A stretch of 64,000 bases of DNA from positions 30,212 to 94,211 of the IMG/VR virus record IMGVR_UViG_3300028833_000112; one strand, written 5' to 3'. The notes under the pieces are model-generated. The model made no database searches and was not told where the DNA came from. It was given only the letters and a program-made list of their open reading frames with translations. The position numbers and the translations under genes were made by a program. Every line of letters starts with the position of its first letter. Positions within the stretch are counted from its first letter, which is position 1. Positions 6,350-8,625 of the stretch are shown one piece after another. This stretch comes from a virus. Lineage: Duplodnaviria > Caudoviricetes.

Positions 6350-6980
6350 GCATGGAATTTTTACTCGCACTGACCTTCCCGATTTGGAGTGCGCCGCTTC
6401 TCGTTTTGCTCGGTAAAGCCGGGGCTCGCGTCTTAAAAATCTTTTGGAGGTGATTCACCTGACTGAAGAGCAAAAAGAAATTGAACGCAGATTTGAACTC
6501 GGTATCTGCCAATTCAACATGCTGATTGAGTATGAAAGAAAACACGTACCGCACGACCTCACCTTCGATGGCGACCCGACTCTGCCACAGATATTGGAAG
6601 CCGCGCGTGACGCTTTCATGGAGTTGCACGTTGATTGGCGGGCGCACATCGGCGACCCTGTGATGGACAAGCGCGAAGCCGTCAGCCGATTGCTTGTCAA
6701 ACTCGCCGCAGACATCGCAAACGGCAAAGTTGATTTATGAGGAGTGATTCATTTGGAAATTACATTCGTCGGTTCGCCCGAAGAGTGGCACGCGACCTTT
6801 GACCACTGCACGCCGAAAAAGTGTGAATCAAAATCTTTCGTTCGGAAAAATATTCTCCACGGCTACGAGTCCGTCGAAGACGACGCAATCAGGGGACGAA
6901 CTTGCGCACCGACCTTTCTCGGACGACGAATATGCCCCAAATTTCAGGCTGAGCAAAACTAATACGCTGTAAGGTTGACC

Positions 6981-7190
6981 CCTGCCGCTAATCGGCGCGG
7001 GCGGCAGGTGTGAGCCTTTAGCCGAGGCTCAAGCCATTCCCTCTATTCATTTTTCAAAGAACTCAATCGCAAGATTGACACCAGCCGCCGTTGTTCCATG
7101 ACCTCCAAATGACGGCGGTGAGTGTGAGTCTTGCAAAAGACTCAAGCAGTGGACGCGAGTGACAGTTCAGCCGAAGATGAATTGCGATTC
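6981..7190 (+). ncRNA. Cluster of stable hairpins (putative structured RNA)
   Basis: Stems 6981-7008, 7011-7031, 7063-7078 (GCAA tetraloop), 7084-7119 and 7125-7144 (GCAA tetraloop); no credible ORF. Confidence 0.55.
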
Positions 7191-7211
7191 GCCGAAACTG
7201 CAAGCCCTTTC

Positions 7212-7349
7212 GTGGGCGGTTGCTTGATAAATCTCCTTTCAGAGAGCCTCCGTGCTCAACGAGCCCCTACGGGGGCTCAACACGCGAGCAACAGATTAGT
7301 GCCGTGGTCGACATCAACCCCGGCGTCGGTTCGAGTCCGACTGCCCGCC
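7212..7349 (+). ncRNA. tRNA-shaped RNA with acceptor stem and T-arm but no D or anticodon arm
   Basis: GTGGGCG(7212-18)/TGCCCGC(7342-48); T-arm GTCGG-TTCGAGT-CCGAC; arm GTTGCTTG/CGAGCAAC enclosing GAGCCCC-TACG-GGGGCTC. Confidence 0.65.
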
Positions 7350-7390
7350 TATCATCAACGCACGTCACGTGCAGAAAGGAGGAGAAACAG

Positions 7391-7789
7391 ATGGCAAAAA
7401 CTTTTGACCTTACCGACGAGGAACTCGATGCTTTTGCTTCTTGGATGGCATATGAAATAATGTGCCCTTTCTCTATGGACAAATCTTGTTACAAAAAATC
7501 TTATCCCCGAGACGTGTTTCGCATCTCTTATCGTAAATCTGTTTGGCTTTGCCATGAACACATAACCATCGTTGCATTGTTTATCAAACACATTCTTTAC
7601 GAATTTAATAAAACAGGCAAAACAACTGGATTTGATTGGTTAGGGATATTGGAAACCCTTACTGAAATGATTGGGATGAAAAACTCATTAATTGACTACA
7701 GCCGCGATATTGATTTAAGGGCGATTTGCATGTCATTTACTGAGAAATTCCCTGACTTTGTTAAGCTTGTCGAAGAAGGTGATTTTTAA
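7391..7789 (+). CDS. Hypothetical protein (AT-rich)
   Basis: AAGGAGGAG RBS; open frame. Confidence 0.6.
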   Translation: MAKTFDLTDEELDAFASWMAYEIMCPFSMDKSCYKKSYPRDVFRISYRKSVWLCHEHITIVALFIKHILYEFNKTGKTTGFDWLGILETLTEMIGMKNSLIDYSRDIDLRAICMSFTEKFPDFVKLVEEGDF

Positions 7790-8556
7790 TGTGGCTCTAT
7801 GACATTGATTATGACATTTATTCCTCAGACCACACACGAAAAATTTATGTTGTCCGCCACGAGCAGAAAAAAGTTGAGCATGTGGTCAGCAGAGCCTCAC
7901 ATCAGTATATATGTCAGGACAGAAAGCGCGAAGTATTTACCGTCGTTGAAGATTGGCATACTCCTGAAAGTCAAGGCAACACCGGCGACTTTGGTTATTA
8001 TATTTTTTATAACCCCCACGATGCCGCCTACTTCATTGCTTGGCTTGCTATGAAACTCAATTCACCGCTCCAAAATGCATTGTTGCAGTCTGCAGACGAA
8101 ATTATCACTCGAATTACCCGGGAACATAACAGATATTACAAGAAAGCTGCTAAGCTGAAAGAAGCGAAGAAATCGAAAATTAAACCCACACCGCCGCCTC
8201 CTCCACCGCCCAAGAAAAAGTCGAAAAAAGATTTGCCGAGTATCGAGCAGATGAAACTCAAAAATTACAACAAGCACGTCTATGCGTTTGACATGAATAA
8301 CGGCAAAATCAAAATCGGCGTGACCAATGACATCCCAACTCGGAAAAAAGCACACGAACACTCTAATGGGACAATCATAACGCGTTATTGTTACACGCAG
8401 ATGATGCCGAATCAAGGCGCGCTGAATATTGAAACTATGTGTCTTAAAGCTTTTGATGACCGCAGAGCACCCGTCGGCGAATTAGTTTTTGCTTCATTTG
8501 AAGAAGTTAAGACGCAGCTTCAATTTCTCGCAAATCTTGAATTCACGACCGAATAA
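7789..8556 (+). CDS. Protein with a C-terminal T5orf172/GIY-YIG-like domain
   Basis: HVYAFDMNNGKIKIGVTNDIPTR...IETMCLKAF...GELVF. Confidence 0.6.
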   Translation: MWLYDIDYDIYSSDHTRKIYVVRHEQKKVEHVVSRASHQYICQDRKREVFTVVEDWHTPESQGNTGDFGYYIFYNPHDAAYFIAWLAMKLNSPLQNALLQSADEIITRITREHNRYYKKAAKLKEAKKSKIKPTPPPPPPPKKKSKKDLPSIEQMKLKNYNKHVYAFDMNNGKIKIGVTNDIPTRKKAHEHSNGTIITRYCYTQMMPNQGALNIETMCLKAFDDRRAPVGELVFASFEEVKTQLQFLANLEFTTE

Positions 8557-8625
8557 TCCCTTAACCCTCTCGATTTTTGAATCCCGCTGCTCAGTGACGG
8601 GCGGCGGGCTTGAAAGATTGGAGGA

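What the first reader, a model, noticed from the sequence alone, without database searches (positions are those of the whole stretch)
6981..7349. tRNA-shaped non-tRNA RNA at the end of a ~370-nt hairpin cluster
Seen: 7212-7349 folds into a four-way junction. It has a 7-bp acceptor stem and a canonical T-arm (GTCGG-TTCGAGT-CCGAC). The D and anticodon arms are replaced by a long arm with a C(UACG)G hairpin and anti-SD tracts, plus a second short arm. Upstream are two GCAA-tetraloop stems and a twice-repeated GTGTGAG...CTCAAGC hairpin (7008-7034, 7122-7147). Known: P1 C4 and P4 CI antisense RNAs are RNase P-processed regulators of immunity. Inference: an analogous, possibly undescribed, RNA that uses tRNA-processing enzymes to release an antisense guide, or a tRNA decoy for anticodon-nuclease defences.
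Basis: partly seen in the sequence, partly recalled or inferred. Interest (0 to 1): 0.75.

Follow-up and report, generated by a model that had tools for sequence, protein, structure and literature searches.

The report
Truncated tRNA look-alike in phage operon
The end of this hairpin-rich non-coding stretch of a sheep-gut phage is a tRNA gene that kept a perfect T arm and acceptor end but lost half its D arm and its anticodon loop; it cannot decode, and it may survive as a cutting signal for tRNA-processing enzymes, which is a modest finding rather than a new kind of RNA.

Summary
The described features are all in the sequence. They lie in a 428-nt gene-free gap of the early operon of a temperate, Shine-Dalgarno-using phage from sheep gut. 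ARAGORN and Rfam find no tRNA, tmRNA or other family.

The solid part is 7325-7349. This T arm plus acceptor 3' strand matches the 3' ends of real tRNA-His and tRNA-Gly genes letter for letter. Aligned to those genes, 7284-7349 is a whole tRNA body with three defects:
- a 7-nt deletion of the D-stem 5' strand;
- an A·C mismatch in the acceptor stem;
- an 8-nt loop without U33 in place of the anticodon loop.

It competes with closures at 6997 and 7284 within 7 kcal/mol.

Relatives in four other gut studies carry the region at 90-95% identity, with a few compensatory changes. One lineage has a more canonical CAU-type arm at the same place.

Best reading (about 0.45): a tRNA-derived, non-decoding element kept as an RNase P/RNase Z site between a structured leader and the next gene. 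A decaying relic is the main rival. C4/CI membership, tmRNA, attP and an anticodon-nuclease decoy are not supported. No RNA ends were seen.

The parts
6963..7390 (+). 428-nt gene-free gap between the ORF ending at 6962 and the ATG at 7391, inside a + strand early operon
   Evidence: ORF list. Relatives carry indels of 1, 2 and 3 nt in 7031-7065, which fits non-coding sequence. The translated ORF 7131-7460 has no protein relatives.
6997..7003 (+). Candidate 5' acceptor strand A (GCGGGCG). It would close a 353-nt RNA with tmRNA-like ends.
   Evidence: It is the partner in the minimum-energy fold of 6975-7355 (probability 0.82). Constrained energy -154.5 kcal/mol. Within chance.
7007..7035 (+). 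Hairpin H1 (GAGCCUU / GAGGCUC, loop UAGCC), first copy of the GAG...CUCAA module, preceded by GGCGG
   Evidence: In relatives 7025 A>G keeps U7017 paired as U·G.
7063..7078 (+). 6-bp hairpin with a GCAA tetraloop
7079..7124 (+). Long hairpin whose loop holds CCAUGACCUCC (anti-SD-like)
   Evidence: 7107 A>G keeps the pair with U7099. X4 replaces 7024-7112 with 76 other letters. No exact target in the genome.
7125..7144 (+). Hairpin H2 (UGAGUCUU-GCAA-AAGACUCA), second copy of the module, preceded by GGCGG
7146..7201 (+). Long irregular hairpin
   Evidence: 7150:7197 changes from U:A to C:G in runs X3 and X23, which is compensatory; X4 has C·A.
7212..7218 (+).
   Evidence: It is the least favourable of the three closures and within chance.
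7219..7292 (+).
   Evidence: TCTCCTTTCA is kept in an X5 variant whose flanks differ.
7261..7278 (+). Hairpin H3, GAGCCCC-UACG-GGGGCUC, third copy of the module
   Evidence: The X4 variant reads GAGCCTC-TTCG, a stem change with the UNCG loop type kept (table 7).
7284..7349 (+). tRNA-derived unit of 66 nt: acceptor 5' strand C (GCGAGCA, 6 of 7 pairs), a 10-nt connector in place of the D arm, an 8-position arm with an 8-nt loop (7301-7324), the T arm, the acceptor 3' strand and C7349
   Evidence: Rfam tRNA model 13.8 bits, the only tRNA-model match in the genome. Alignment to real tRNA-Gly and tRNA-His shows a 7-nt D-arm deletion. Fold.
7301..7324 (+). Arm in the anticodon position: GCCG-U-GGU / ACC-C-CGGC with loop CGACAUCA
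   Evidence: The X23 lineage has GC-A-UUGGG / CCCAA-C-GC with a 7-nt loop CUCAUUC; two positions change on both sides.
7325..7341 (+). Canonical T arm (G53:C61 present, loop UUCGAGU)
   Evidence: It is the only T-arm-like motif on either strand of the 94-kb genome. It is identical to real tRNA genes.
7342..7349 (+). Acceptor 3' strand UGCCCGC plus discriminator C; no encoded CCA (UAUCA follows)
7350..7393 (+). Spacer with the hairpin GCACG-UCA-CGUGC (7360-7372), SD GAAAGGAGGAG (7374-7384) and ATG (7391). The block 7325-7385 travels together in relatives.
   Evidence: X5 record 18 and X23 record 3 keep 7325-7385/6 in front of different genes.

Best explanation
7284-7349 is a tRNA gene derivative. 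It keeps a perfect T arm, acceptor 3' strand and discriminator. It has lost the 5' strand of its D stem, carries one acceptor mismatch, and has an 8-nt loop without U33 where the anticodon loop should be. It therefore cannot decode. It ends a roughly 300-nt hairpin-rich non-coding part of the phage's early + strand transcript and lies 41 nt before the next start codon.

Inferred mechanism: the acceptor/T-arm stack is still read by the host's tRNA-maturation enzymes. RNase P would cut 5' of whichever strand closes the stem, most likely at 7284. RNase Z would cut after C7349, because no CCA is encoded. These cuts would separate the structured leader from the downstream message, which would then begin with a short hairpin and a strong Shine-Dalgarno site.

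Shown here: the tRNA descent, the non-decoding state, conservation in related phages, and the RNA-type signatures of the hairpins. Inferred only: transcription, cleavage, and any effect on expression.
For: 1. The 21/22-mer of T loop plus acceptor occurs exactly, and in register, in real tRNA genes: tRNA-His of two Bacteroidia MAGs (29 of 30 identical, including the trailing TAT) and a tRNA-Gly in a metagenomic tRNA cluster.
2. In the alignment with those tRNAs, 7284-7290 matches their acceptor 5' strand at 6 of 7 positions. TTAG.GC of the D loop and D-stem 3' strand is in register, and there is one 7-nt gap at the D-stem 5' strand.
3. The Rfam tRNA model picks exactly 7284-7349. This is its only match in the genome, at 13.8 bits.
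4. It is the only T-arm motif in 94 kb.
5. Relatives from four other studies carry the region at 90-95% identity. The truncated version is present in X3, X4 and X5.
6. X23 record 3 has, at the same spacing after TTAGTGC, a 5-bp/7-nt CAU-type arm joined to the same T arm. Two arm positions change on both sides.
7. The block 7325-7385 (T arm, acceptor, spacer hairpin, SD) stands in front of three different first genes. That fits a portable processing-and-expression module.
8. The T arm and acceptor are letter-perfect while the rest of the body has diverged, which suggests uneven constraint.
9. The leader shows RNA signatures: two GCAA loops and one UACG loop, z -5.8 on the + strand against -3.2 on the - strand, a compensatory 7150:7197 change, and an H3 stem change that keeps a UNCG loop.
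Against: - No RNA ends were observed. The one metatranscriptome (X23) is held only as contigs, which cannot show transcription or cleavage.
- The tRNA-model score is far below the gathering score (13.8 against 29 bits) and has E 0.32 genome-wide.
- The closing 5' strand is not settled. Three candidates lie within 7 kcal/mol, and such partners are common by chance.
- No acceptor-stem covariation could be tested, because the relatives' sequences could not be fetched.
- Of the 12 substitutions shown in the region, only one pair is compensatory, and 3-4 would break predicted pairs unless hidden rows compensate.
- Predicted SD masking in the precursor is not exceptional: the median pairing probability over 54 genes is 0.57, ranging up to 0.96.
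- A perfect 3' third could also reflect a recent origin or a recombination event rather than selection.
Confidence: 0.45

Rival explanations
1. It is a dead relic. A phage tRNA gene lost part of its D arm and is decaying. It has no function of its own, and the upstream hairpins are unrelated regulatory or stabilising structures of the early transcript.
For: - D-arm deletion, acceptor mismatch and an 8-nt loop.
- Sub-threshold tRNA score.
- The phage encodes no other tRNA.
- A related lineage has a more canonical arm at the same place.
- The locus sits at a mosaic boundary next to a low-GC cassette.
Against: - The T arm, acceptor strand and discriminator are still letter-identical to working tRNA genes, while the rest of the body has diverged strongly.
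- The truncated form is shared by lineages 5-10% apart from several studies.
- 7325-7385 is kept as a block in front of different genes.
Confidence: 0.28
2. A 138-nt four-way-junction RNA (7212-7349) is cut out by RNase P at 7212 and acts as an antisense regulator through its anti-SD tracts, in the manner of P1 C4 or P4 CI.
For: - It is the minimum-energy fold of the isolated segment, z -3.9.
- The 8-bp helix 7219-7226/7285-7292 is strong.
- UCUCCUUUC is kept in an X5 variant with different flanks.
- It pairs with the next gene's SD in wider folds.
Against: - It is the least stable of the three closures.
- The 7212 strand is within chance.
- Its long arm uses 7285-7292, which homology identifies as the ancestral acceptor 5' strand.
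- In the X5 variant the letters that replace 7219-7226 are not complementary to 7285-7292 as it reads in the window. X5's own letters there could not be read (record 16 has 6 unlisted differences in 7250-7354), so this is suggestive only.
- There is no C4 match in Rfam.
- C4 and CI lack a T loop (PMC5499578).
- No specific target was found.
- SD masking is not unusual in this genome.
Confidence: 0.1
3. 7325-7354 is a recombination core: an attP, a secondary att site, or an attB for another element. On this view it is a tRNA 3' end carried for site-specific integration, not an RNA feature.
For: - Contigs of relatives break reciprocally at the edges of the tRNA-identical block. Left-arm contigs end at 7354 and run on into unlike DNA (X4 record 13, X5 records 16/17). 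Right-arm contigs begin at 7325 (X5 record 18, X23 record 3).
- The identity includes 5 nt beyond the tRNA end.
- The phage has a tyrosine integrase.
- Variable low-GC genes follow the block.
Against: - The only integrase lies 7.3 kb away, and there is no serine recombinase.
- A textbook attP candidate sits beside that integrase. All five + strand copies of TTGTCTGC in the genome lie within 240 nt, flanking a different tRNA 3' fragment.
- The only genomes with the exact 21-mer are Bacteroidia. The phage uses SD sites at 63% of genes against a 13% background, which argues for another host phylum.
- tRNA similarity continues, in degenerate form, to a 5' acceptor strand.
- The tRNA-like body in X23 has U37 and C73 with CAU, which is odd for a host tRNA.
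Confidence: 0.07
4. It is a roughly 353-nt stable RNA whose 5' end (6997) and 3' end (7349) form a tRNA-like domain, as in tmRNA. A possible tag frame ends ...ALSWAVA followed by UGA UAA at 7225-7230.
For: - The closure at 6997 is the minimum-energy fold of 6975-7355.
- The length is tmRNA-like.
- A short frame with a hydrophobic A-x-A end and a double stop can be read directly from the sequence.
Against: - ARAGORN finds no tmRNA at normal settings and only junk at permissive ones.
- The Rfam tmRNA model has no match at E up to 10.
- Position 3:70 is G:C, not the G·U that AlaRS needs.
- The discriminator is C.
- The 6997 strand is within chance.
- An X23 variant has a T inserted inside it.
Confidence: 0.05
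5. It is a tRNA decoy. It soaks up a host defence nuclease or transferase that attacks tRNAs, either at the anticodon or at the acceptor end. It might work together with the faintly HepT-like protein encoded next to it.
For: - The acceptor/T-arm half is intact.
- The next gene, 7391-7789, has three weak and correlated hints of a HepT/DUF86 fold: Pfam E 0.03, NCBIfam E 0.09 and Atlas 0.83. K and D stand where the catalytic R and H would align, as read by eye.
Against: - There is no anticodon-like loop.
- The HepT hints are all below significance, and the structure model is unusable (pLDDT 50).
- The neighbouring gene differs in relatives that keep the element.
- There is no PADLOC match.
Confidence: 0.05

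Closest known systems
Canonical bacterial and phage tRNA genes (Rfam RF00005), in particular the tRNA-His and tRNA-Gly genes found with the same 3' end
   Same: Identical T arm, acceptor 3' strand and discriminator. The acceptor 5' strand matches at 6 of 7. TTAG.GC of the D loop and D-stem 3' strand is in register.
   Different: 7 nt of the D stem are missing. The loop has 8 nt, no U33 and no readable anticodon. The variable region has 0-3 nt. The score is 13.8 bits against a 29-bit gathering score, and ARAGORN rejects it.
Pseudo-tRNAs and tRNA gene fragments in prokaryotes (fragments surveyed in PMC9897764; Bacillus cereus tRNA-Other, PMC3399842)
   Same: tRNA-derived sequence that does not decode. 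Some such molecules have taken on regulatory roles.
   Different: Most fragments are plain 3' pieces left at integration sites. Here a nearly whole but damaged body lies inside a phage operon, 7 kb from the integrase. I took these papers from their abstracts only.
RNase P-processed phage regulators: P1/P7 C4 RNA and P4 CI RNA
   Same: A small structured RNA inside an early or immunity transcript of a temperate phage, proposed to be released by a tRNA-processing enzyme.
   Different: C4 and CI are hairpin-type substrates without a T-loop equivalent (PMC5499578). This element has a canonical T arm, gives no Rfam C4 match, and has no identified target pair.
tRNA-mRNA co-transcripts, where tRNA excision defines the mRNA 5' end (for example the E. 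coli thrU-tufB operon; from my own knowledge)
   Same: A tRNA-shaped unit directly upstream of a coding region on the same strand, with no promoter predicted between them.
   Different: In those operons the tRNAs are functional. Here the unit seems to be kept only for its shape.
D-armless mitochondrial tRNAs, and remodelled phage tRNAs noted elsewhere in this scan
   Same: Acceptor, anticodon-position arm and T arm, with a short connector in place of the D arm.
   Different: Those molecules keep a 7-nt anticodon loop and are thought to decode. This one does not.
tmRNA
   Same: The length of the whole cluster, and the possibility that its two ends form an acceptor/T-arm domain.
   Different: No G3·U70, no model match, no predicted pseudoknots, and no convincing tag.

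Membership tests
tRNA (RF00005) | Scores at or above the family's gathering score and is accepted by a tRNA finder | tested here: not met
   13.8 bits against 29. ARAGORN finds none in the window or the genome.
tRNA (RF00005) | Canonical T arm (5 bp, 7-nt loop, G53:C61) directly followed by a 7-nt acceptor 3' strand and a discriminator | tested here: met
   7325-7349, identical to real tRNA genes.
tRNA (RF00005) | D arm with a 3-4 bp stem | tested here: not met
   A 7-nt gap at the D-stem 5' strand in the alignment with real tRNAs.
tRNA (RF00005) | 5-bp anticodon stem with a 7-nt loop, U33 and purine 37 | tested here: not met
   The loop is CGACAUCA (8 nt, no U33) and the stem has a U·C mismatch.
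tRNA (RF00005) | 7-bp acceptor stem supported by covariation | tested here: inconclusive
   Three candidate 5' strands. Partners are common by chance. No full-length homologues could be fetched.
C4 / CI-type RNase P-processed antisense RNA | Match to the Rfam C4 antisense RNA model (accession RF01695 from memory, not checked) | tested here: not met
   No Rfam match at gathering score in the window, and no C4 match at E up to 10 in 6850-7450.
C4 / CI-type RNase P-processed antisense RNA | Loops complementary to specific target sites in the same operon | tested here: not met
   Only generic SD-like complementarity was found. The 11-mer target is absent, and one-mismatch hits are at about the chance level.
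C4 / CI-type RNase P-processed antisense RNA | Maturation by RNase P | not testable with these tools
   It needs RACE or an in vitro cleavage assay. Only RNA contigs were available.
tmRNA | G3·U70 alanine identity pair, a model match and a tag reading frame | tested here: not met
   3:70 is G:C for the closures at 6997 and 7212. There is no RF00023 match at E up to 10. ARAGORN is negative.
Phage attP in a tRNA gene | Core next to the integrase gene, flanked by arm-type repeats | tested here: not met
   The integrase is 7.3 kb away. The arm-type repeat cluster and another tRNA 3' fragment lie beside the integrase instead.
Phage attP in a tRNA gene | Core identical to the 3' end of a tRNA gene of the host | tested here: inconclusive
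   Exact matches occur only in two Bacteroidia MAGs, which are unlikely hosts for an SD-using phage. The host is unknown.
Proteo-phage-1 RNA (RF03044) | Reaches the gathering score | tested here: not met
   17.6 bits against 42, over 7254-7328.

The most novel reading that the evidence does not exclude
The element is a portable, processing-gated expression switch. In the unprocessed early transcript, pyrimidine tracts of the leader (UCUCCUUUC at 7232-7240, or 7038-7048) mask the Shine-Dalgarno site at 7374-7384. Excision of the non-decoding tRNA look-alike by RNase P and RNase Z cuts the mask away and leaves a hairpin-capped, translatable message. The block 7325-7385 moves between phages as a unit to drive different cargo genes.
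Probability: 0.12. Interest if true: 0.6.

Novelty: new variant of a known kind. Interest (0 to 1): 0.35.

Why it matters
If the element is cut by tRNA-maturation enzymes, a temperate phage of Gram-positive-type gut bacteria would be keeping only the enzyme-recognition half of a tRNA as a punctuation mark in an operon. That would be a bacterial-virus counterpart of mitochondrial tRNA punctuation and of mascRNA-type processing.

It would also explain why standard annotation leaves a 428-nt gap here. And it gives a concrete example of how a phage tRNA gene can be re-used rather than lost.

If it is merely a relic, it is an ordinary by-product of tRNA gene turnover in phages. The more interesting unexplained object would then be the upstream leader with its three paralogous GAG...CUCAA hairpins.

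Tried and rejected
- **Known RNA families.** Rfam at gathering score and at E up to 10 gave only sub-threshold matches: tRNA 13.8 bits, Proteo-phage-1 17.6 bits, and a plastid leader on the wrong strand. Permissive ARAGORN runs gave only implausible tRNA and tmRNA calls.
- **Homologues in IMG/VR.** There were none by three flanking proteins or by three motif patterns. The four hits are coding DNA, not hairpins. The 102 hits are ordinary tRNAs with TTAGTGC in the D arm, plus unrelated odd tRNA look-alikes.
- **Other collections.** The INPHARED phage collection gave no DNA match. The metagenome and genome scans returned only real tRNA genes.
- **Protein searches.** The downstream protein has no relative in the large protein database. 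The spurious ORF across the element has none either.
- **Closed or capped tools.** The relatives seen by read laying therefore could not be fetched, and no covariation test of the acceptor stem was possible.
- **Metatranscriptome run X23.** It is held as contigs only, so it gives no evidence of transcription or of RNA ends.
- **SD masking.** It is predicted but not distinctive against 54 other genes.
- **Antisense targets.** No target was found beyond SD-like words.
- **Structure of the 132-aa neighbour.** The model has pLDDT 50 and was not searched.
- **Earlier notes of this scan.** None mentions look-alike DNA in other genomes.
Full report
**Setting.** The window is bases 30212-94211 of a 94,211-bp IMG/VR virus record (87% complete). 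DNA runs from a sheep gut metagenome hold it. The phage has a tail sheath, DnaB, a sliding clamp, SSB and methylases, and a tyrosine integrase just left of the window. Its GC content is 51%. SD-like words stand before 63% of long ORFs against a 13% background, so a Bacteroidota host is unlikely. It has no close relatives among deposited phages: the tail sheath and sliding clamp find only about 30% identity, and the stretch 6900-7450 has no DNA match there.

The finding lies in a 428-nt gene-free gap (6963-7390) between small + strand early genes and a strongly SD-led gene starting at 7391. No promoter or terminator consensus falls inside the gap.

**The observation.** ARAGORN finds no tRNA or tmRNA in the window or in the whole genome. 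Rfam has no match at gathering score.
- The isolated segment 7212-7349 folds into the described four-way junction, z -3.9 (z -3.1 for 7205-7355).
- The whole cluster 6975-7355 folds with z -5.8 and a well-defined centroid on the + strand. The - strand gives z -3.2 and a poorly defined centroid.
- Together with two GCAA loops, one UACG loop and a T loop that read correctly only on the + strand, this points to an RNA on the same strand as the genes.

**The acceptor stem is the weak point.** The 3' strand 7342-7348 can be closed by three different 5' strands:
- 6997-7003: 7 of 7 pairs, constrained energy -154.5 kcal/mol.
- 7284-7290: 6 of 7 pairs, -152.7 kcal/mol.

The ensemble switches partner depending on how much flank is folded. 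7-mers able to pair with that strand occur 158 times in the genome. At least one within 345 nt is therefore expected 44% of the time, and two 11% of the time. The octamer G[CT]GGGCGG alone occurs 26 times on the + strand. The four-way junction is thus a possible fold, not an established one.

**What the 3' end is.** An exact scan with the T-loop-to-acceptor 21/22-mer returned only real tRNA genes, always in register:
- tRNA-His(GUG) in two Bacteroidia MAGs, 29 of 30 identical including the TAT after the discriminator.
- tRNA-His(GUG) on a metagenome contig (L112) whose fetched stretch is identical to that of one of the MAGs (L113).
- tRNA-Gly(UCC) in a metagenomic four-tRNA cluster.

It is the only T-arm-like motif on either strand of the phage genome.

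Aligned with those tRNAs, 7284-7349 lines up from end to end:
- GCGAGCA against their GCGGGCA at the acceptor 5' strand.
- A single 7-nt gap where the D-stem 5' strand should be.
- GATTAGTGC against GGTTAG(A/C)G(C/T) for the D loop and D-stem 3' strand.
- A diverged arm in the anticodon position.
- Then 25 identical letters.

The Rfam tRNA model selects exactly these 66 nt. This is its only match in the genome, at a sub-threshold 13.8 bits. The arm in the anticodon position has 8 stem positions with one mismatch and an 8-nt loop, CGACAUCA, without U33. The element is therefore a tRNA derivative that cannot decode. This agrees with another first-stage note on the same stretch, which called it a D-arm-less tRNA-like fold.

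**Relatives.** IMG/VR, the phage collection and the JGI metagenome scan gave no homologues. Public gut runs do hold them. Contigs from four other studies (X3, X4, X5 and the metatranscriptome X23) cover the region at 90-95% identity.
- X3 tiles the whole region, including 7184-7450, so the same arrangement exists elsewhere.
- X4 and X5 carry the truncated body (7310-7354 and 7250-7354).
- Indels of 1-3 nt cluster in the AU-rich linker 7031-7065, which fits non-coding sequence.
- Among the substitutions shown, 7150:7197 goes from U:A to C:G in X3 and X23. 7025 and 7107 change to wobble pairs. Five fall in loops, and three or four would break predicted pairs.
- The X4 version of H3 reads GAGCCTC-TTCG where the window has GAGCCCC-TACG. 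That is a stem change with the UNCG loop type kept.
- In X23 record 3 the 30 letters before the T arm keep TTAGTGC at the same distance. They form a 5-bp stem with a 7-nt loop, CUCAUUC (a CAU anticodon, but with U37), inside the same 2+5 versus 4+3 stem frame. Two positions change on both sides.

The locus thus holds a tRNA-type gene across this phage group, more canonical in one lineage and truncated in ours. A proper covariation test remains undone.

**Breakpoints and the att question.** Contigs with the left arm stop matching at 7354, and contigs with the right arm start matching at 7325. That is the pattern expected of an att core, and I took it seriously. Four things argue against it.
- The genome has one integrase and no serine recombinase.
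- Beside that integrase lies a classical attP candidate. All five + strand copies of TTGTCTGC in the genome lie within 240 nt, flanking a different tRNA 3' fragment, CGAATCCGACTTCGCTCG.
- Our element is 7.3 kb away, on the other side of the lysogeny genes.
- Its tRNA similarity runs on, in degenerate form, to a 5' acceptor strand.

I read the breakpoints as mosaic module boundaries. The block 7325-7385 (T arm, acceptor, spacer hairpin, SD) recurs in front of three different first genes. The genes that follow here have 36-44% GC against about 51% for the phage.

**Mechanism.**
- Shown: tRNA descent, loss of decoding features, an intact enzyme-recognition half, persistence in diverged lineages, and RNA-type signatures in the leader.
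- Inferred: the acceptor/T-arm stack still serves RNase P and, because no CCA is encoded, RNase Z. This rests on my own knowledge of Bacillus tRNA maturation. The cuts would separate the leader from the downstream message.
- Weakly supported: folding predicts that the SD at 7374-7382 is paired with 7232-7240 in the precursor (probability 0.8-0.96) and much less paired after a cut at 7349. But SD pairing of that order is common among this phage's genes, so I give the switch idea only low odds.

**Comparison with known systems.**
- P1 C4 and P4 CI are hairpin-type RNase P substrates without a T loop (PMC5499578), and no C4 model match exists here.
- tmRNA fails on G3·U70 and on both detectors.
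- An anticodon-nuclease decoy needs an anticodon loop, which is absent.
- The closest class is the pseudo-tRNA or tRNA-derived element. Here it sits inside a phage operon with a possibly retained processing role.

**Verdict.** This is a real, conserved, tRNA-derived but non-decoding element at the end of a structured leader. Function is inferred, not shown. Interest is moderate to low (0.35).

Noticed in passing
L004:1213-1457 (genome 29057-29300, about 0.9-1.15 kb before the window start): Likely true attP. All five + strand copies of TTGTCTGC in the genome lie in the 240-nt gap at the 3' end of the tyrosine integrase gene, two on one side and three on the other. They flank a tRNA 3' fragment, CGAATCCGACTTCGCTCG (T-loop half, T-stem 3' strand, acceptor strand).
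   Followed up: partly
window 7391-7789: The 132-aa protein right after the element has three weak, correlated hints of a HepT/DUF86 (HEPN RNase toxin) fold at residues 87-128: Pfam E 0.03, NCBIfam E 0.09, Atlas feature score 0.83. The motif reads K-N-S-L-I-D-Y where R...H would be expected. It has no relatives in the large protein database, and the AF2 model is unusable (pLDDT 50).
   Followed up: partly
window 7391-8600: A low-GC cassette (36-44% against about 51% for the phage) holds the HepT-like ORF and a 255-aa protein with a T5orf172 domain and a proline-lysine-rich linker. Relatives have other genes after 7385, so this looks like exchangeable cargo.
   Followed up: partly
window 7007-7035, 7125-7147, 7261-7281: Three paralogous hairpins share GAG...CUCAA(G/C) at the base, while their upper stems differ by compensating changes (CCUU/GAGG, UCUU/AAGA, CCCC/GGGG). 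Two are preceded by GGCGG-NNN-GUGU, and two are followed by ACGCGAG-NNACAG. No other clean copy occurs in the genome. Their role, for example as a protein-binding module, is unexplained.
   Followed up: partly
whole genome (window and 30 kb before it): The octamer G[CT]GGGCGG occurs 26 times on the + strand and 9 times on the - strand of the 94-kb record, where about 3 per strand would be expected from length alone. It may reflect Ala-Gly-Gly coding in structural genes, or a strand-biased signal such as a Chi-like site. This was not resolved.
   Followed up: no
L052:1397-1472; also L049, L090, L072, L035/L103: Unrelated IMG/VR contigs picked up by the TTAGTGC...GGTTCGAGTCC pattern carry odd tRNA look-alikes with a good T arm and an acceptor-CCA end but no normal D or anticodon arm. 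ARAGORN calls the L052 one tRNA-??? and misses the others.
   Followed up: no
window 7024-7112: In run X4 this stretch (the 3' half of H1, the AU-rich linker, the first GCAA hairpin and most of the long anti-SD hairpin) is replaced by 76 other letters. Other lineages follow H1 with AAAATCTCCCACTGA instead. The leader is built of exchangeable modules.
   Followed up: no
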